49,798 bases of DNA, from the sequence record NC_101840.1, one strand, 5' to 3'. Source of the DNA: a phage. Of the stretch, positions 30,715-41,237 are shown one piece after another (the first letter of the stretch is position 1; every line of letters begins with the position of its first letter). The translations under genes were made by a program, and so were the position numbers. A model generated the notes under the pieces. The model did no database searches and had not been told where the DNA came from. It was given only the letters and a program-made list of their open reading frames with translations.

Positions 30715-32712
30715 ATGATTCCAAATATCGAAAAACAAATATCAGCATTAGGCGAGGCAGTAATAAAAAGCATCCAAGAGCGATTCACGGTTGGCAATAT
30801 AGTGCCTTATCCTTATCAGTGCGTTGCGTATGCAGAGATCGCAAAGCGCATGAAAAACTATGAGCATCCTTTCTTTGTTAAGGCTTCTGTATCGGCTGGC
30901 AAAACATTGATGTTTGCGATGGTTGCGGCGCAATGCCGCAAAATGGGATTGAAAATGATGGTCCTTGCTCGCCAGGCTGAAATTGTTGATCAGGATTCGG
31001 AAGAGATCAGCAATCTTGGCGTGCCAAACTCAATCTATTGCGCCGGACTGAAAACAAAAAGCGCATACTTTCCGATCGTAGTCGGTTCTGAGGGCACTGT
31101 AGTAAACGGATTGTTTAAGTCGTTAGGTGATTATGTTCCGCACGTTATCGGTATTGATGAATGTCACCAGGTGGATTGGGAGGATCTCGCGGACGCGATA
31201 GAAAATAATGAATCTTACCAGCAGATGACCACTAAGAAGGATTTGCCTGTACTGATTGGAGAAGAACAGCAATTTGATTCCAATGGCGATCCAATGTTCG
31301 GAACAGGGCGCACACAGTACACCGTAATAATCATGGAAATGATGCGTAGGTGTCGCGAGGCATACGGGCACGAATTGCGAATATTCGGCATGACTGGATC
31401 TGAGTTTCGCGGCGTGGTTCCAATACTGGTTGAAGATAAGAACAAAAAGGGATTCTGGCGTGAGCAGGTGACTAACATAGACACAAACTACTTAATCAAA
31501 TTCGGTTCGGTAGTGCCAACAAACTTCGGCGACGTAGGCGACCTGGGTTATGACCTTTCAGAGTTCGAAGCCAGTAGCGAGGATGGCGTTTCAGACTTTG
31601 ACGCTAAAACATTGCGCAAGATGGAAGAAAAGATCCATCAAGACGCAACAATGACACAGAAAATCATGGCTAAAGTCCATGAGATATGCAAAGACAGGAA
31701 CGGAGTTTTAGTTACATGCGCAGGGGAAAGGCACTGCAAGGAGGCCGCCGCCGCACTGCCGCCAGGCGTTGAATACAGGATCATAACTGGCAAGACTGGA
31801 GATAATCAGCGTAAAGAGTGGCTGAGGGAGGCATACGAGGGAAAAGTAAAATACATCTTCCAGGTACAGGCGCTTACCACTGGCGTTAACGTTCCGTTTT
31901 GGGATACTTCTGTAATACTGAGAAAGATAGGATCTCTAACATTGCTTATCCAGCTTTTGGGGCGCGGCATGCGACTGCTTAAGCAATGGCACATTGAGCA
32001 GGGATTCAAGAAAAAAGATCATCTTGTGTTGGATTTTGCAGGTACTATGGATGAGTTAGGTGATTTGTATTTCGATCCAATCCTTGAGCAAGCGCAATTC
32101 CAAAAGAGATTTACAAACGGGAAAGAGCCTAAGACTTGTCCGATATGTGGAACGCTAAACAGCTTTTACGCTCGCCGATGTATGCACGTAGACGATAACG
32201 GGAAGCGATGTGAGCATTTTTGGACTTACAGAATTTGCGAGGACCAGGTAGATCCGAGAACGAAAAAGATAATCAAGCGCGGTTGTGGAACAAAAAACGA
32301 CGTAGTGGCGAGAGTATGCCGTTGTTGCGATATTTCTCTTGTCGATCCTAACGAGAAGTTAAGCGGTAAGCACTACACCAAAAACGATTGGTGCAACGTT
32401 AAATCTTTCCGCGTTGATATGACGAAAAACCAGAAAGGAATTATTTTTTGCTATGAGCTTGAGGCCAACGGCGACACGTTCAAGGCATACGAAAGATTTT
32501 TCCCTGAGTCAGAAAGCAACATTTGCCGGACGATATGGAGAAAAATAGCATTGCAGCACATACCGGATCGCAAGATTGCTGGTATGGTGGCGAGCTATAG
32601 AAATGCTCGTAAAATAATGTCATACGCTCATCACATCATGCCGCCTGTACGCGTAACGCATCGCAAAAACGGCAAAGGTGAGGATAACATTGCAAAACGG
32701 GAGTTTGTTTAA
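30715..32712 (+). CDS. SF2 DNA helicase with C-terminal Cys-rich zinc-finger region
   Basis: Walker A SAGKT, DECH box (GIDECHQ), later helicase motifs, CPICG/CxxC cluster. Confidence 0.8.
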   Translation: MIPNIEKQISALGEAVIKSIQERFTVGNIVPYPYQCVAYAEIAKRMKNYEHPFFVKASVSAGKTLMFAMVAAQCRKMGLKMMVLARQAEIVDQDSEEISNLGVPNSIYCAGLKTKSAYFPIVVGSEGTVVNGLFKSLGDYVPHVIGIDECHQVDWEDLADAIENNESYQQMTTKKDLPVLIGEEQQFDSNGDPMFGTGRTQYTVIIMEMMRRCREAYGHELRIFGMTGSEFRGVVPILVEDKNKKGFWREQVTNIDTNYLIKFGSVVPTNFGDVGDLGYDLSEFEASSEDGVSDFDAKTLRKMEEKIHQDATMTQKIMAKVHEICKDRNGVLVTCAGERHCKEAAAALPPGVEYRIITGKTGDNQRKEWLREAYEGKVKYIFQVQALTTGVNVPFWDTSVILRKIGSLTLLIQLLGRGMRLLKQWHIEQGFKKKDHLVLDFAGTMDELGDLYFDPILEQAQFQKRFTNGKEPKTCPICGTLNSFYARRCMHVDDNGKRCEHFWTYRICEDQVDPRTKKIIKRGCGTKNDVVARVCRCCDISLVDPNEKLSGKHYTKNDWCNVKSFRVDMTKNQKGIIFCYELEANGDTFKAYERFFPESESNICRTIWRKIALQHIPDRKIAGMVASYRNARKIMSYAHHIMPPVRVTHRKNGKGEDNIAKREFV

Positions 32713-33131
32713 TGGCTATAACTGATAAAGGAGATTATCTTGAGTTTTACGAAAGAGATCCAACCGACACGAGAAAGGAAGTTAATCACCAGATAGATAG
32801 CTTTCAGTGGTTGACTTATGCTCATCCTTATTTGCTAGCGTGGCATACGGTAAACGAGAATGAGAAGTCGAAAGTAACGGCGATGATTGATCAGCAGTCC
32901 GGCTTGGTTAAGGGGGTAAGCGATTTCATCATCCTGATTGGTTCAAACGGAAAATACCCCTTTGCAGCGATTGAGATCAAACGAGTTAATAAATCAGGCA
33001 AGGGGAAAGCATCACCAGTCAGCGATGAACAAAAGGCTTTTTTGCGTCGCGTTCGCAGCTTAGGAGGATTCGCTGCGGTCGCCTACGGATTTAATCAGTT
33101 TAAGTTAGCTATTGAATACATGCTTAAATAG
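32712..33131 (+). CDS. VRR-NUC domain nuclease
   Basis: GVSDF...AAIEIK PD-(D/E)XK pattern of VRR-NUC proteins; coupled to helicase. Confidence 0.6.
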   Translation: MAITDKGDYLEFYERDPTDTRKEVNHQIDSFQWLTYAHPYLLAWHTVNENEKSKVTAMIDQQSGLVKGVSDFIILIGSNGKYPFAAIEIKRVNKSGKGKASPVSDEQKAFLRRVRSLGGFAAVAYGFNQFKLAIEYMLK

Positions 33132-33210: not shown

Positions 33211-33936
33211 ATGGCTAAAGATATTTTAGATAAAGACACCCATGACGCATTCGTTAGCTTTGAGCAGTTGGAGAGAGAAACATTTATAGGGAATGCCCTT
33301 GCAACTGGAGGCCATTACCAGGCAGTAAAGCCAAATCAATATTATAAGGTAAGCGGCAACCGATACGCTGGAAGCACTACGCCGGACGTTGTGCGCGATA
33401 TGTGGAGCACGCCTCAAGAGATCGTGGAGTGGATGGAATCAGAATTTGGTGAATACGATCTCGACGCGGCAGCAAGCCATGAAAACGCAGTTTGCGAGAA
33501 GTTCTATAGCAAGGAAACAAACTGCTTAAAGCGTTGGTGGGGTAGCAACAAGCACGTATGGCTTAACCCGCCGTACAGCAACCCAACTCCATTTATCAAG
33601 AAAGCAATTGAGCAAATGGAGCACAACAACCAAATTGATGTTTTGTTGCCATCCGACAACTCTACAGCATGGTTTTATGAGGCGCAGAAAAACGCGGCTG
33701 AAATCATCTGGATCACTGGCGAGGTTTACGAAGAGGGGGGAGTGGAATATTCCCGCACCGGAAGAATCGCCTTTGTGTCTGGATTGACTGGCGAGCCTGT
33801 ACAGGGCAACAATAAGGGAAGCGTGATTTTTGTCATGCGCAAACTTAAAGAAGGCGAGGAGCAGAAAACGCGATACGTTAAGATCAGCGATATTTGCCCC
33901 TCTGTAACCGAACGCCGCGCGCGCAAACGGAGCTAA
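33211..33936 (+). CDS. dam: DNA N6-adenine methyltransferase (phage Dam type)
   Basis: catalytic NPPY motif (WLNPPYSN) and SAM-binding-like region. Confidence 0.8.
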   Translation: MAKDILDKDTHDAFVSFEQLERETFIGNALATGGHYQAVKPNQYYKVSGNRYAGSTTPDVVRDMWSTPQEIVEWMESEFGEYDLDAAASHENAVCEKFYSKETNCLKRWWGSNKHVWLNPPYSNPTPFIKKAIEQMEHNNQIDVLLPSDNSTAWFYEAQKNAAEIIWITGEVYEEGGVEYSRTGRIAFVSGLTGEPVQGNNKGSVIFVMRKLKEGEEQKTRYVKISDICPSVTERRARKRS

Positions 33937-37576: not shown

Positions 37577-37972
37577 TCATGTGATATTGAATTTACGGCG
37601 CAGTGCTTCAAGATCTTGTCTATTAGCTTTTGCCTGGAACAATTCATCATCGCCCATCTCCCCTATTCTAGCCATATCCCTGATCCAGTCGTTGCGCATA
37701 CCATCCAGGCTATACAATTCGAATCCGAAAGGCCGCTTTGACGATCCTTTGGACCAGTATTTTCCGCAGACTCCATCTATATAACCAGCCGTCATCATTC
37801 TTGCGCAAAATTCCTTAGATGCAAGGCTGGCGAACATTCGCGGCGTAAGTCCGGCGGCCCGTGCGAGCCGCTCACATTCTCTATGCTGATAGATAAATTT
37901 GGCTATGTGCTGCCTGTTAAACCAATCGTATGACTCACACCATTTATACAGATCAAGCAAAAACATAATCAT
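37577..37972 (-). CDS. hypothetical protein (131 aa)
   Basis: track ORF; start overlaps stop of upstream ATPase gene. Confidence 0.45.
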   Translation of the reverse strand: MIMFLLDLYKWCESYDWFNRQHIAKFIYQHRECERLARAAGLTPRMFASLASKEFCARMMTAGYIDGVCGKYWSKGSSKRPFGFELYSLDGMRNDWIRDMARIGEMGDDELFQAKANRQDLEALRRKFNIT

Positions 37973-39549
37973 CCCAGCAGTATTGGATTGACAAAAATAA
38001 CACCATTAATCACACAAACATAATTTCTTTCTTCCAGCATTGGCAGTAAGTGCCCTTCTATCCTTTTCATTACGCCAGCCTGACCAACGAAAGGTTTTAC
38101 CTTTCTCGCTGATTCGTACAGGGCGCGGATATTCAGAATCCCTTTATTAGCCTTGCCGTGCCTCGTGATCAATTCAATCAATTTACCCATTTCAGCATCA
38201 TCACCAGCATAACCAGAAGCATTGGCGGCGCTAATGTATGTTTTGCTCAATTCCTGAAACATGATCAACGCCTCTTGCATTGTTTCCACGTCGATCTCTT
38301 TCGACTTCTGCGGGTATCCGGCAGGATTAAACCAGTTACGGATAACATGCAGGACGGAAGCAAGCCTGATCACCTGTTTATCCATTTTACCCAGCGCACC
38401 GCGTAACATTGTATGAGAATACTTTCCTCCGTCTGCAAGATGCGGTTCCATATCCTGGCGAGCAATGTTGAGCACTCGCATAGCTGAACGGCTTATTTTC
38501 AGCGATATATTTGATTCGCTCATGATGTTATGCACCAATTGATAATATTGGGCTTTCAATTCAGAATCCACCGCCTCATAGGTAGAATCACCATTTTCAT
38601 CAATGAATGAGCGACGGCCTAAGAATGATTCCTCTCGGACCAACAAAAAACGCTCACTAACACCGATGCCTCGCGATCCAGCGTCCATGATTCCGCTTAT
38701 CGTTTCATCCTGGGCTATGACGCTCATACATCCAAGCGCGCGAAAACTCATATTATTGTCAGCATTAGCACGGGCAATTGATACGTGACCATTATCCCAC
38801 GCCTTAAGCACTAACTCACTGTTAGTCTTCCTTTCGCTATTTGCATAGGTCAAGCCTAACAGACTGTTAATACTTGTTGCTTCATCAGATATTACGGCAA
38901 AGTTACCTTGCTTGTTGTTGATTTTCGCCAAGCCTTCTGGAGTTGTATCTGAAACAGGAAAAGTTATATCACACATTTTTTCCAGCTTTTCCTCCAGATC
39001 CTCTTTTTCCTGGTATAGAGATTCCATATCAGCGCCGGATCTTTCGCTTTTCATCTCCTTTGCAAGACCTGCCAGCTTTGCCTGTATTTTCTTTCTTTCC
39101 TTGCGGCGTTGCTCGTTGATCTTCTCAACTTCCGCAATCATCGGAGCAATAGCCATGCTGTTGATCGCAGATTTACCAGTTGACGGCGGCTGGCTTGTAA
39201 CGACGTAAAGCGCAGTCGGCTGATCGGTTCCGTGATAGTCAACCGTAAAGCGTCCAAGCATAGCGGCAGAAATGCAGCCGATAAAGTGCATGTAAGCCGA
39301 TGATTCAGGGAATTGAACGGATCGCGCAATGCTGCGTGATAACTTGCCGACAACATCAATATCATTACCAAGAGAAATAACGGGGTAGCGATCGTGACCG
39401 CTATTCACATCCTTTACGTCGCCCCAAAAGCTGGACGACTGGCGATAGCCGTTAGCCTGAATTGATACGCGAACTGGCGAAAGGTTCTGGCTTTCAGCCA
39501 TAGCGATTATTTGTTGTGGAGTTAATTTGTTCGTTTCTAATGAAAACAT
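37969..39549 (-). CDS. P-loop NTPase, SF3-helicase-like (526 aa)
   Basis: Walker A variant QPPSTGKS and Walker B-like VISDEAT; AAAGGAG RBS. Confidence 0.55.
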   Translation of the reverse strand: MFSLETNKLTPQQIIAMAESQNLSPVRVSIQANGYRQSSSFWGDVKDVNSGHDRYPVISLGNDIDVVGKLSRSIARSVQFPESSAYMHFIGCISAAMLGRFTVDYHGTDQPTALYVVTSQPPSTGKSAINSMAIAPMIAEVEKINEQRRKERKKIQAKLAGLAKEMKSERSGADMESLYQEKEDLEEKLEKMCDITFPVSDTTPEGLAKINNKQGNFAVISDEATSINSLLGLTYANSERKTNSELVLKAWDNGHVSIARANADNNMSFRALGCMSVIAQDETISGIMDAGSRGIGVSERFLLVREESFLGRRSFIDENGDSTYEAVDSELKAQYYQLVHNIMSESNISLKISRSAMRVLNIARQDMEPHLADGGKYSHTMLRGALGKMDKQVIRLASVLHVIRNWFNPAGYPQKSKEIDVETMQEALIMFQELSKTYISAANASGYAGDDAEMGKLIELITRHGKANKGILNIRALYESARKVKPFVGQAGVMKRIEGHLLPMLEERNYVCVINGVIFVNPILLG

Positions 39550-40222: not shown

Positions 40223-40275
40223 GATTAGATCTCCTTTGTTTGTTCGATGTGATTATGCCAGGTTTTTACACCTGG

Positions 40276-40297
40276 CTTTTAACAAAAAGTGCTATTT
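40276..40297 (-). promoter_or_regulatory. conserved junction box, sense to leftward genes
   Basis: on minus strand: AAAATAGCACTTTTTGTTAAAAG; TAG is stop of methyltransferase-like gene; hairpin GCCAGGTG...CCTGGC and CATAAT follow. Confidence 0.55.
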
Positions 40298-41002
40298 TGA
40301 GTTTGACTCAAAGACTGCGCGAGCAAAGCCGCGCGGAGTGAGGGAGCGGATCATCTTTGTGCGCGATGACTTGCCGCCAGTTTTGGCCCAGCCTGGATTA
40401 TCTTTGTCTTCCTCTTTCGGCAGGATTAAAGCGCGTGGAGGAATAACAAAGCCGTTGCCAGTCCAGAGGCACGTTTTCTTAAAATAGCGATCACGCGCAG
40501 GAATAATATCAGGGAAGTCGGGATGTTTATCATCTTCCGGCAGATAGCCAGCGTAATCGCACGGATGGAACGTATAATCAGGCTTACGCCATAACGTTGA
40601 CAACTTGCCAACCGGATTTTCGATCATGTAAGGAACACCGAAATAATCAGCTATATCAGCCGCGATTCTGCAAGTGTCGGCGGCCTCATCCTGGAACGAT
40701 GGATTCTCAAGGCGTTTTTTGGCCCAATGGCGAGATCCGCTATTTGCAAGGTCGGTGCACGGCGGAAATGCCATAATAAAATCAGGATTGCCCCACTCAT
40801 TATTGATTGCCTTAACATAAAAAGCATCGTCAATCCAGACGTTAACGTATTCGATATTCTCATGCTGTATGCGCACTGACTGGTAATCACCGTGATCGCC
40901 ACCGTCAGCATTAAAGCAAATGCACTTATATCCATTATCAGCCCAATCTTTAACGGCTTTACCAGATCCATCAAATAGGGAGAATATTAAACCTTTATAC
41001 AT
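40292..41002 (-). CDS. compact DNA cytosine-5 methyltransferase-like protein (about 236 aa)
   Basis: motif I-like LFDGSG, PC-motif FPPCTDLANSG, ENV-like IENPVG, LTPRG near C-terminus; start at second ATG with GAGGT RBS (track 40292..41071). Confidence 0.5.
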   Translation of the reverse strand: MYKGLIFSLFDGSGKAVKDWADNGYKCICFNADGGDHGDYQSVRIQHENIEYVNVWIDDAFYVKAINNEWGNPDFIMAFPPCTDLANSGSRHWAKKRLENPSFQDEAADTCRIAADIADYFGVPYMIENPVGKLSTLWRKPDYTFHPCDYAGYLPEDDKHPDFPDIIPARDRYFKKTCLWTGNGFVIPPRALILPKEEDKDNPGWAKTGGKSSRTKMIRSLTPRGFARAVFESNSK

Positions 41003-41012
41003 CGTCATTACC

Positions 41013-41237
41013 TCAAAACGGAAAACAGCGCGGACAACCAGGATCGAAATCGCATCCACAATCATTAACAATCATAGTGGGATCTGCAAATATTGCGCTT
41101 GATTCAAGATCCATATCCATATCACCTAAAGCCTCATCAAGAGTCTTAATTTTATATGCCACTTCAAGCGCCGCCTCTTTATTTAGTCCGGCATCTTCTG
41201 CCATTTGAAGGCGCTCAAAAAATCCGTCTTGACTCAT
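41013..41237 (-). CDS. hypothetical acidic protein with C-terminal Cys cluster (74 aa)
   Basis: track ORF; CGCDFDPGCPRC motif. Confidence 0.45.
   Translation of the reverse strand: MSQDGFFERLQMAEDAGLNKEAALEVAYKIKTLDEALGDMDMDLESSAIFADPTMIVNDCGCDFDPGCPRCFPF

What the first reader, a model, noticed from the sequence alone, without database searches (positions are those of the whole stretch)
40292..41002. Compact C5-cytosine methyltransferase-like gene in addition to the Dam-type enzyme
ORF 40292-41002 has motif I-like FDGSG, a PC motif (FPPC), an ENV-like ENP and an LTPRG segment in canonical order, but only about 85 residues follow the ENV motif, leaving little room for a target-recognition domain. 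Together with the Dam-type N6-adenine methyltransferase at 33211-33936 the phage would carry two DNA modification activities. The truncated architecture could mean relaxed or unusual specificity, or a non-methylating derivative.
Basis: partly seen in the sequence, partly recalled or inferred. Interest (0 to 1): 0.55.

Follow-up and report, generated by a model that had tools for sequence, protein, structure and literature searches.

The report
Known compact phage Dcm-like cytosine methyltransferase
The ORF is a real, conserved gene for an unusually small DNA cytosine-C5 methyltransferase that many T1-like coliphages carry beside a Dam enzyme; a 90%-identical relative has already been shown to make 5-methylcytosine and to trigger the retron Ec86/Eco1 defence system, so the finding is correct but not new.

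Summary
On the minus strand, 41002->40292 encodes a 236-aa protein with FDGSG (10-14), FPPC (79-82), IENP (127-130), RDRYFKK (170-176) and RSLTPRG (219-225) in the canonical C5-methyltransferase order. A Pfam Dam gene (PF05869, E 2e-61) sits at 33211-33936.

The window is a Warwickvirus (Drexlerviridae) coliphage. The protein is 100% identical to BASEL phage Bas04 "Dcm-like C5 cytosine methyltransferase" and 90% identical, without gaps, to that of Bas06 KarlJaspers. The 711-bp dcm of K42, a KarlJaspers strain, was shown by LC-MS to put 5mC on retron Ec86 msDNA. It triggers that defence, and its named active-site residues C82/E128/K175/K176 are all present here.

The "non-methylating derivative" reading is contradicted. 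What remains open is the sequence specificity: CCWGG was assumed in the source I could read, not measured.

Verdict: already known, low interest.

The parts
40292..41002 (-). dcm-like gene: 236-aa compact DNA cytosine-C5 methyltransferase (711 bp including the stop)
   Evidence: ORF and translation. PHROG 757 'DNA methyltransferase' at E 3.7e-85. The protein is 100% identical to Bas04 bas04_0049 over the 236 aa and 90% identical to Bas06 bas06_0055, both annotated 'Dcm-like C5 cytosine methyltransferase'.
41010..41014 (-). Shine-Dalgarno GAGGT, 7 nt upstream of the ATG; overlaps the TGA stop of the upstream ORF
   Evidence: Read directly from the sequence. Base -9 is the second G of GAGG, here and in Bas06. 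K42 escaper phages carry a C-to-A change 9 bp upstream of the dcm start, which supports this start codon.
40961..40975 (-). Motif I, FDGSG (residues 10-14), AdoMet-binding loop after strand beta-1
   Evidence: It aligns to SLFDGIA of DNMT3A/3B and DLFAGLG of M.HhaI. The wider family consensus is S-L-[FY]-D-x-[TS]-G.
40757..40768 (-). Motif IV, FPPC (residues 79-82), with the catalytic Cys82
   Evidence: C82 is present in 109 of 117 diverse representatives. It aligns to the PC of DNMT3 and M.HhaI. C82 is one of the four residues mutated in the inactive K42 Dcm construct.
40613..40621 (-). Motif VI, E128-N129-P130 (ENV-like)
   Evidence: E128 is present in 114 of 117 and P130 in 115 of 117 representatives. 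It aligns to ENV. E128 is mutated in the inactive K42 Dcm construct.
40475..40495 (-). Motif VIII-like segment RDRYFKK (residues 170-176), leading into strand TCLW (177-180)
   Evidence: D171, Y173, K175, T177 and W180 are conserved, but R172 is not. The segment aligns to HRARYFWGN of DNMT3A. K175 and K176 are mutated in the inactive K42 construct.
40349..40462 (-). Minimal variable, target-recognition-like region, residues 181-218 (38 aa)
   Evidence: Length comparison with M.HhaI (100), M.HaeIII (111), E. coli Dcm (115) and DNMT3A (63). The segment is itself well conserved across the family: P188, G209, G210, K211, T215, K216.
40310..40348 (-). Motif IX, R219-S-L-T-P-R-G-F-A-R-A-V-F231; the protein ends 5 residues later, so there is no motif X
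   Evidence: hhalign places IRSLTPRGFARAV on M.HhaI RKLHPRECARVM (low per-column confidence). Only 18 residues run from the start of motif IX to the C-terminus, against 53-73 in reference enzymes.
33211..33936 (+). Dam-type N6-adenine DNA methyltransferase, the phage's second DNA-modification gene
   Evidence: PF05869 at E 2e-61. The syntenic Bas06 gene is annotated 'Dam-like N6-adenine methyltransferase'.

Best explanation
The gene encodes an active, AdoMet-dependent DNA cytosine-C5 methyltransferase of a compact, phage-borne family. It is a close homologue, at the same genome position, of the 'Dcm' of Drexlerviridae phage K42 (a KarlJaspers strain).

Proposed mechanism (inferred from the family chemistry). 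Cys82 of the PC motif attacks C6 of a flipped-out cytosine, Glu128 of the ENP motif contacts the base, and the methyl group of AdoMet is transferred to C5. DNA would be read by a very short (38-aa) variable region together with the catalytic loop. The enzyme lacks the C-terminal motif X helix of classical enzymes.

Proposed role. Together with the phage Dam it methylates replicating phage DNA, presumably at CCWGG, which would protect against restriction enzymes that cut unmethylated sites. As a side effect it methylates the stem-loop of retron Ec86/Eco1 msDNA, and that defence system uses this as its alarm signal.

Shown by others for phage K42: 5mC formation on msDNA that depends on C82/E128/K175/K176, and retron triggering.

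Shown here: homology and shared position, fold, motif anatomy and conservation.

Inferred: activity of this exact allele, CCWGG specificity, and the anti-restriction role.
For: Homology and shared position:
- The protein is 90% identical, without gaps, to Bas06 KarlJaspers Dcm. Residues 121-236 differ at only 4 positions.
- It is 100% identical to Bas04 Dcm.
- Gene length (711 bp), gene order and SD sequence are the same.

Experimental literature (bioRxiv 10.1101/2023.08.16.553469; published as Cell Rep 2024 43:114857):
- Expressing Dcm is toxic only when the retron is present.
- LC-MS shows high 5mC on msDNA with wild-type Dcm but not with the C82A/E128A/K175A/K176A mutant.
- Mutating the msDNA CCTGG abolishes defence.
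- 34 of 35 Ec86-sensitive phages encode Dcm.
- Later papers treat this as established.

Fold:
- AF2 model, pLDDT 87.4, pTM 0.87.
- Foldseek ranks 1-44 against the PDB are all DNMT3A/3B.

Sequence profiles:
- hhalign of the family against DNMT3A gives E 2.4e-5.
- Against an M.HhaI/M.HaeIII/E. coli Dcm mini-profile it gives E 1.3e-4, with motifs I, IV, VI and IX in register.

Constraint and context:
- 16 synonymous and 0 non-synonymous codon differences against Bas04.
- The catalytic residues are near-invariant across 117 diverse representatives.
- One family member, P0261, is fused to a D12-class N6-adenine DNA methyltransferase.
- CCWGG is not avoided in the window (127 observed, 67 expected from base composition). 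Other palindromes are strongly avoided, for example CCSGG (2 observed, 54 expected) and GGWCC (13 observed, 67 expected).
Against: - No experiment was done on this exact allele or on virion DNA.
- In the source I could read, CCWGG specificity was taken over from host Dcm by analogy, not measured.
- In dcm+ MG1655 the empty-vector msDNA carried little 5mC. The msDNA CCTGG is an imperfect duplex with an unpaired G22. So the phage enzyme does something the host Dcm does not do efficiently.
- The BASEL study found no simple link between methyltransferase genes and restriction resistance in Drexlerviridae.
- The protein does not reach any curated Pfam or NCBIfam threshold.
- Foldseek TM-scores to DNMT3 are only 0.4-0.5.
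- Motif X, which contributes to the cofactor pocket in classical enzymes, is absent.
Confidence: 0.88

Rival explanations
1. It is an active C5-cytosine DNA methyltransferase, but not a CCWGG-specific Dcm equivalent. The minimal recognition region would give a shorter, relaxed or structure-tolerant specificity: for example the outer C, CCW/CWG-type sites, or hemi-sites, mismatched sites and hairpin DNA.
For: - The variable region is only 38 aa, against 115 in E. coli Dcm.
- CCWGG was assumed, not mapped.
- The msDNA target is a CCTGG/CAAGG duplex with an unpaired G.
- It is poorly methylated in dcm+ MG1655 without the phage enzyme.
- The recognition-region residues are conserved across phages of very different hosts, from Escherichia, Klebsiella and Vibrio to Arthrobacter. 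That would be odd for a site chosen to match an enterobacterial restriction system.
- The BASEL study saw no simple restriction-protection pattern.
Against: - Changing either C of the msDNA CCTGG abolished retron defence.
- CCWGG is conspicuously not avoided in the genome while related palindromes are.
- Overexpression level alone could explain the difference from host Dcm.
Confidence: 0.3
2. It is a C5-methyltransferase-fold protein that no longer methylates DNA, or that transfers another group (such as carboxymethyl from Cx-SAM), because it has lost motif X and most of the recognition domain.
For: - Motif X is absent.
- Position 31, an Asp in 103 of 117 family members, is Asn in this subfamily.
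Against: - LC-MS detected 5mC on msDNA with K42 Dcm, dependent on the catalytic residues. K42 is a strain of KarlJaspers, whose Dcm is 90% identical to this protein.
- Cys82, Glu128 and Lys175 are under strong conservation.
Confidence: 0.04
3. Its physiological substrate is RNA (a Dnmt2-like tRNA C5-methyltransferase), not DNA.
For: - A weak profile hit to DNMT2 (E 0.25).
Against: - The best matches are DNA enzymes, DNMT3A/3B.
- DNA (msDNA) methylation was shown for K42 Dcm.
- One family member is fused to a DNA adenine methyltransferase.
- The gene sits in a DNA replication and modification gene neighbourhood.
Confidence: 0.03

Closest known systems
Phage K42 / KarlJaspers (Bas06) 'Dcm', the trigger of retron Ec86/Eco1 (Wang et al., bioRxiv 2023.08.16.553469; Cell Rep 2024 43:114857)
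   Same: - Same 711-bp, 236-aa gene at the same genome position in a Tempevirinae Drexlerviridae phage.
- 90% identical to Bas06 without gaps.
- The same C82, E128, K175 and K176, and the same SD sequence.
   Different: - Different genus: Warwickvirus here, Hanrivervirus for KarlJaspers.
- 24 substitutions, nearly all in residues 23-117.
- The K42 sequence itself was not available to me. Only its 95.4%-identical relative Bas06 could be compared.
Mammalian DNMT3A/DNMT3B catalytic domain (closest solved structures)
   Same: - Nearly identical spacing of motifs I, IV and VI: residues 10/82/128 here against 13/83/129 in the DNMT3A fragment.
- Similar local sequences: SLFDG, PCxDLS, and W-x-G-N after motif VIII.
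- DNMT3 also has a small recognition region.
   Different: - About 18% sequence identity.
- The DNMT3A catalytic domain has a 63-aa variable region and a motif X (GRSWSVP); the phage protein has 38 aa and no motif X.
- DNMT3 reads CpG and works as a dimer or tetramer. The oligomeric state of the phage enzyme is unknown.
E. coli Dcm / M.EcoRII-type CCWGG methyltransferases (Pfam PF00145)
   Same: - Same chemistry (C5 methylation) and presumably the same target, CCWGG.
- Motifs I, IV, VI and IX can be recognised. The motif IX core RRLTPRECARL resembles RSLTPRGFARA.
   Different: - 472 aa against 236 aa.
- A 115-aa recognition domain.
- Motif X is present.
- Passes PF00145, which the phage protein does not.
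- Host Dcm did not noticeably methylate Ec86 msDNA in MG1655.
M.HhaI / M.HaeIII (textbook bacterial C5-methyltransferases)
   Different: - 100-111-aa recognition domains forming a separate small domain.
- Motif X helix present.
- A canonical QxRxR motif VIII. In the phage family the second Arg is not conserved.

Membership tests
DNA cytosine-C5 methyltransferases (PF00145-type, ten-motif architecture) | Motif I (F-x-G-x-G) AdoMet-binding loop after beta-1 | tested here: met
   FDGSG at residues 10-14 aligns to motif I of DNMT3A/B and M.HhaI. In distant family members the first Gly is replaced, giving SLFDYTG.
DNA cytosine-C5 methyltransferases (PF00145-type, ten-motif architecture) | Motif IV Pro-Cys with the catalytic cysteine | tested here: met
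   P81-C82. Cys is present in 109 of 117 representatives and aligns to PC of DNMT3 and M.HhaI.
DNA cytosine-C5 methyltransferases (PF00145-type, ten-motif architecture) | Motif VI Glu-Asn-Val | tested here: met
   E128-N129-P130. E is present in 114 of 117 representatives. Val is replaced by Pro throughout the family.
DNA cytosine-C5 methyltransferases (PF00145-type, ten-motif architecture) | Motif VIII Q-x-R-x-R | tested here: inconclusive
   R170-D-R172-Y-F-K-K occupies the position. Across the family only D171, Y173 and K175 are conserved, and R172 is usually Ala. The alignment to DNMT3A HRARYFWGN has low per-column confidence.
DNA cytosine-C5 methyltransferases (PF00145-type, ten-motif architecture) | Variable target-recognition domain between motifs VIII and IX | tested here: met
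   Present but minimal: 38 residues against 63 (DNMT3A) and 100-115 (M.HhaI, M.HaeIII, E. coli Dcm).
DNA cytosine-C5 methyltransferases (PF00145-type, ten-motif architecture) | Motif IX (R-x-L-T-x-R-E-x-A-R-L) | tested here: met
   RSLTPRGFARAV (219-230) is placed on M.HhaI RKLHPRECARVM by hhalign. R219, T222, P223, G225 and A229 are conserved.
DNA cytosine-C5 methyltransferases (PF00145-type, ten-motif architecture) | Motif X (G-N-x-V + helix) at the C-terminus, part of the cofactor pocket | tested here: not met
   The protein ends 18 residues after motif IX starts, against 53-73 in four reference enzymes. There is no GN[AS]V anywhere. Most family representatives end at the same point.
DNA cytosine-C5 methyltransferases (PF00145-type, ten-motif architecture) | Score above the curated Pfam PF00145 or NCBIfam threshold | tested here: not met
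   No Pfam or NCBIfam hit for this protein even at E<=1. PF00145 hits only 5 of 82 diverse members, best E 0.0039. PDB profile searches give E 0.1-0.6.
DNA cytosine-C5 methyltransferases (PF00145-type, ten-motif architecture) | C5-methyltransferase fold | tested here: met
   [not shown]
DNA cytosine-C5 methyltransferases (PF00145-type, ten-motif architecture) | AdoMet-dependent formation of 5-methylcytosine in DNA | not testable with these tools
   Reported for K42 Dcm by LC-MS on msDNA. K42 is a strain of KarlJaspers, whose Dcm is 90% identical to this protein. Not measured for this allele or for virion DNA.
Phage 'Dcm' triggers of retron Ec86/Eco1 (K42/KarlJaspers type) | 711-bp gene with C82, E128, K175 and K176, in a Drexlerviridae genome at the same position | tested here: met
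   All four residues are present. The protein is 90% identical to Bas06 and 100% to Bas04. The same neighbours are present: a 74-aa ORF upstream, and 128-aa and 73-aa ORFs plus a DUF3987 'helicase' downstream.
Phage 'Dcm' triggers of retron Ec86/Eco1 (K42/KarlJaspers type) | Activates retron Ec86 by methylating the msDNA stem-loop | not testable with these tools
   Inferred from homology and shared position only. The msDNA sequence and its CCTGG were verified in BLR(DE3), between the retron RT and effector genes.
Dam family PF05869 (for the companion gene 33211-33936) | Match above the curated threshold; NPPY-type catalytic motif | tested here: met
   207 bits against a cut-off of 28.1, E 2e-61. 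WLNPPYS is in the translation.

The most novel reading that the evidence does not exclude
The family is a minimal C5-methyltransferase design with no motif X helix and a 38-residue recognition segment, and its specificity is not that of host Dcm. It may accept imperfect, hemi-site or hairpin CCWGG-like DNA, or a shorter site, perhaps by working as a DNMT3-like dimer. This would explain two things. First, retron Ec86 msDNA, whose CCTGG has an unpaired G, is methylated by the phage enzyme but barely by host Dcm in dcm+ cells. Second, the gene is kept by phages whose hosts already methylate CCWGG.
Probability: 0.3. Interest if true: 0.5.

Novelty: already known. Interest (0 to 1): 0.22.

Why it matters
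There is little new here for phage biology. The gene is annotated as a Dcm-like methyltransferase in dozens of GenBank records, and a close relative is the published trigger of retron Ec86/Eco1.

Three points have practical value. First, this phage should be sensed by retron Eco1. Second, its DNA probably carries both m6A (Dam) and m5C, which matters for restriction mapping, nanopore basecalling and cloning. Third, the family escapes Pfam and NCBIfam, so automated pipelines often call it 'hypothetical'.

The architecture may also be among the smallest known working C5-methyltransferases: 236 aa, a tiny recognition region and no motif X. In the sources I could read its sequence specificity has not been measured, and that is the one question still worth an experiment.

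Tried and rejected
- Pfam and NCBIfam scans of the protein gave nothing, even at E<=1.
- phmmer and profile searches against PDB sequences stayed non-significant (E 0.1-0.6). Widening the profile to 82 diverse members made it worse: SDR dehydrogenases intruded.
- hhalign in global mode against M.HhaI gave a meaningless alignment. Local mode was needed.
- The published Cell Reports version of the retron paper is not in the library. I relied on the preprint plus later papers that cite the published version.
- A literature search for direct methylome or specificity data on Drexlerviridae Dcm-like enzymes found none beyond annotation-level statements.
- I considered the longer 257-259-aa ORF that starts upstream, as annotated in Bas04 and in cluster representative P0001. 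I rejected it for three reasons: it overlaps the upstream gene, it has no SD, and the K42 escaper mutation maps to the SD of the 236-aa start.
- I considered that motif X might be supplied by a circular permutation or by the small upstream ORF. Neither sequence contains a GNxV-like motif.
- I considered the hairpin downstream of the gene as a terminator. It has no T-run on the coding (minus) strand and did not pass the scan.

Full report
**What is in the sequence**

The ORF lies on the minus strand, which the finding does not say. Its ATG is at 41002 and its stop at 40294-40292, giving 711 bp and 236 aa. A GAGGT Shine-Dalgarno sequence sits 7 nt upstream (41010-41014) and overlaps the TGA stop of a 74-aa upstream ORF.

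- FDGSG, residues 10-14
- FPPC, residues 79-82
- ENP, residues 128-130
- LTPRG, residues 221-225

Two details need correction. There is a second, irrelevant ENP at residues 99-101. And 106 residues, not about 85, follow the true motif VI.

The companion Dam gene at 33211-33936 is confirmed (PF05869, E 2e-61).

**Where the window comes from**

The region is 99.5% identical to Escherichia phage tuinn and 98-99% identical to tonn, swan01 and other Warwickvirus phages (Drexlerviridae, Tempevirinae). Many of these records already annotate the gene as 'dcm', 'DNA-cytosine methylase' or 'Dcm-like C5 cytosine methyltransferase'.

The protein is identical to that of BASEL phage Bas04 FritzSarasin. The two genes differ at 16 codons, all synonymous, which shows purifying selection.

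**The family**

The family is large and phage-borne:
- more than 3000 homologues at 90% clustering;
- 2001 representatives at 50% clustering, median length 236 aa;
- 1498 of 50,697 phage records, mainly Escherichia, Klebsiella and Salmonella, but reaching Vibrio and Arthrobacter phages.

The compact size is therefore the family norm, not a local truncation.

A few members carry extra modules. One has an HNH insertion. One (P0261) is fused to a D12-class N6-adenine DNA methyltransferase, which fits a DNA-modification role.

**Is it a C5-methyltransferase?**

Curated sequence models do not reach it:
- no Pfam or NCBIfam hit for this protein;
- PF00145 touches only 5 of 82 diverse members, at E>=0.0039;
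- PDB sequence searches stay at E 0.1-0.6, although the top hits are DNMT3B and M.HaeIII with motifs I and IV aligned.

Profile comparisons run with hhalign point the same way. The family against DNMT3A gives E 2.4e-5. Against an M.HhaI/M.HaeIII/E. coli Dcm mini-profile it gives E 1.3e-4, with motifs I, IV, VI and IX in register. E. coli Dcm came from the K-12 genome.

**Anatomy**

The spacing of motifs I, IV and VI almost matches DNMT3A: residues 10, 82 and 128 here, and 13, 83 and 129 in the DNMT3A fragment.

| Enzyme | Variable region, motif VIII to IX (aa) | Motif IX start to C-terminus (aa) |
|---|---|---|
| This protein | 38 | 18 |
| DNMT3A | 63 | 53 |
| M.HhaI | 100 | 56 |
| M.HaeIII | 111 | 58 |
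| E. coli Dcm | 115 | 73 |

With only 18 residues after motif IX starts, motif X (GNxV plus its helix) is absent.

Across 117 diverse representatives these residues are near-invariant: C82, E128, N129, P130, D171, Y173, K175, W180, P188, R219, P223 and G225. The classical second Arg of motif VIII is not conserved. The acidic residue after beta-2, Asp in most of the family, is Asn31 in this subfamily.

**What it does**

The decisive evidence comes from the literature. Wang et al. (bioRxiv 10.1101/2023.08.16.553469, published as Cell Rep 2024 43:114857) isolated four escapers of retron Ec86 from phage K42, a KarlJaspers strain. Their findings:
[quoted passage not shown] - Expressing Dcm was toxic only in cells carrying the retron.
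- LC-MS showed high 5mC on msDNA with wild-type Dcm, but not with a C82A/E128A/K175A/K176A mutant.
- Changing the CCTGG in the msDNA stem-loop abolished defence.

I fetched KarlJaspers (Bas06, MZ501090). Its dcm is 711 bp at the same genome position. Its product is 90% identical to the window protein without gaps, and nearly identical from residue 121 onward.

All four named residues are present in the window protein. Base -9 is the second G of the GAGG Shine-Dalgarno sequence in both phages. This explains the escaper mutation and supports the 236-aa start over the longer 257-aa annotation.

Later retron papers treat Dcm-triggered Eco1 activation as established. The 'non-methylating derivative' option is therefore contradicted.

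**What remains open**

In the preprint, CCWGG specificity was taken over from host Dcm, not measured. Two observations suggest the phage enzyme is not simply a copy of host Dcm activity.

First, msDNA from dcm+ MG1655 carrying an empty vector had little 5mC.

Second, the Ec86 msDNA site is an imperfect duplex. I verified the msDNA sequence in BLR(DE3), where it lies between the retron RT and effector genes. When folded, CCTGG occupies positions 19-23 and G22 is unpaired, so the opposite strand reads CAAGG.

Expression level could explain the difference, but relaxed or structure-tolerant recognition by the 38-aa segment is not excluded.

Genome composition gives weak support for CCWGG protection. 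The window has 127 CCWGG sites against 67 expected from base composition. In contrast, CCSGG (2 observed, 54 expected), GGWCC (13 observed, 67 expected), GAATTC (1 observed, 14 expected) and GGTACC (0 observed, 9 expected) are depleted. CCWGG-rich composition is also host-like, though.

The BASEL study found no simple link between methyltransferase genes and restriction resistance in this phage family.

**Verdict**

The gene is an already annotated Dcm-like methyltransferase whose close relative in phage K42 has been experimentally characterised.

The architectural point is accurate and under-described: a minimal recognition region, no motif X, and invisibility to Pfam. It is a property of a known family, not a discovery in this window. 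The one question worth an experiment is the enzyme's true sequence and structure specificity.

Noticed in passing
whole window (1-49798): Several short palindromes are strongly under-represented relative to base composition: CCSGG 2 observed vs 54 expected (20 by Markov model), GGWCC 13 vs 67, GAATTC 1 vs 14, GGTACC 0 vs 9, CTAG 36 vs 188. CCWGG (127 vs 67) and GATC (305 vs 188) are not avoided. This looks like restriction-site avoidance that spares the GATC (Dam) and CCWGG (presumed Dcm) sites.
   Followed up: partly
window 40257-40276: A 7-bp inverted repeat, GCCAGGT-TTTTAC-ACCTGGC, lies in the 69-bp spacer between the dcm stop codon and the next gene. Each arm contains a CCWGG site (40258 and 40271). 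There is no T-run on the coding (minus) strand, so it is not an obvious terminator.
   Followed up: partly
window 41003-41071 and L001 3712-3774: Public records (Bas04 bas04_0049) and cluster representative P0001 annotate a 257-aa product that starts upstream and overlaps the preceding gene. The mechanical ORF from TTG 41071 is 259 aa. The 236-aa start has the SD sequence and matches the 711-bp gene used experimentally.
   Followed up: yes
L003 2501-2586 (E. coli BLR(DE3) retron Ec86 msd): In the folded 86-nt msDNA, the CCTGG reported as the Dcm target (positions 19-23) has G22 unpaired, so the opposite strand reads CAAGG. The sensor site is not a canonical double-stranded CCWGG palindrome.
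   Followed up: partly
window 32712-33131: A VRR-NUC domain nuclease gene (PF08774, E 2.2e-10) sits between the DNA helicase and the Dam gene. Bas06 annotates the syntenic ORF as a hypothetical protein.
   Followed up: no
window 37969-39549: The 526-aa protein two small ORFs downstream of dcm matches DUF3987 (E 1.7e-44). Public records call it 'putative helicase'.
   Followed up: no
proteins P0261 and P0248 (family members from elsewhere): P0261 (563 aa) fuses this compact domain to a D12-class N6-adenine DNA methyltransferase (PF02086, E 2.5e-48). P0248 carries an HNH endonuclease insertion. In some Dhillonvirus-like phages the tblastn match to this protein also overlaps an annotated HNH endonuclease, next to a DNA helicase.
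   Followed up: partly
window 40910-40912 (residue 31): The residue after strand beta-2 is Asp in 103 of 117 diverse family members. This is the position of the ribose-binding acid in classical methyltransferases. In this coliphage subfamily it is an invariant Asn.
   Followed up: no
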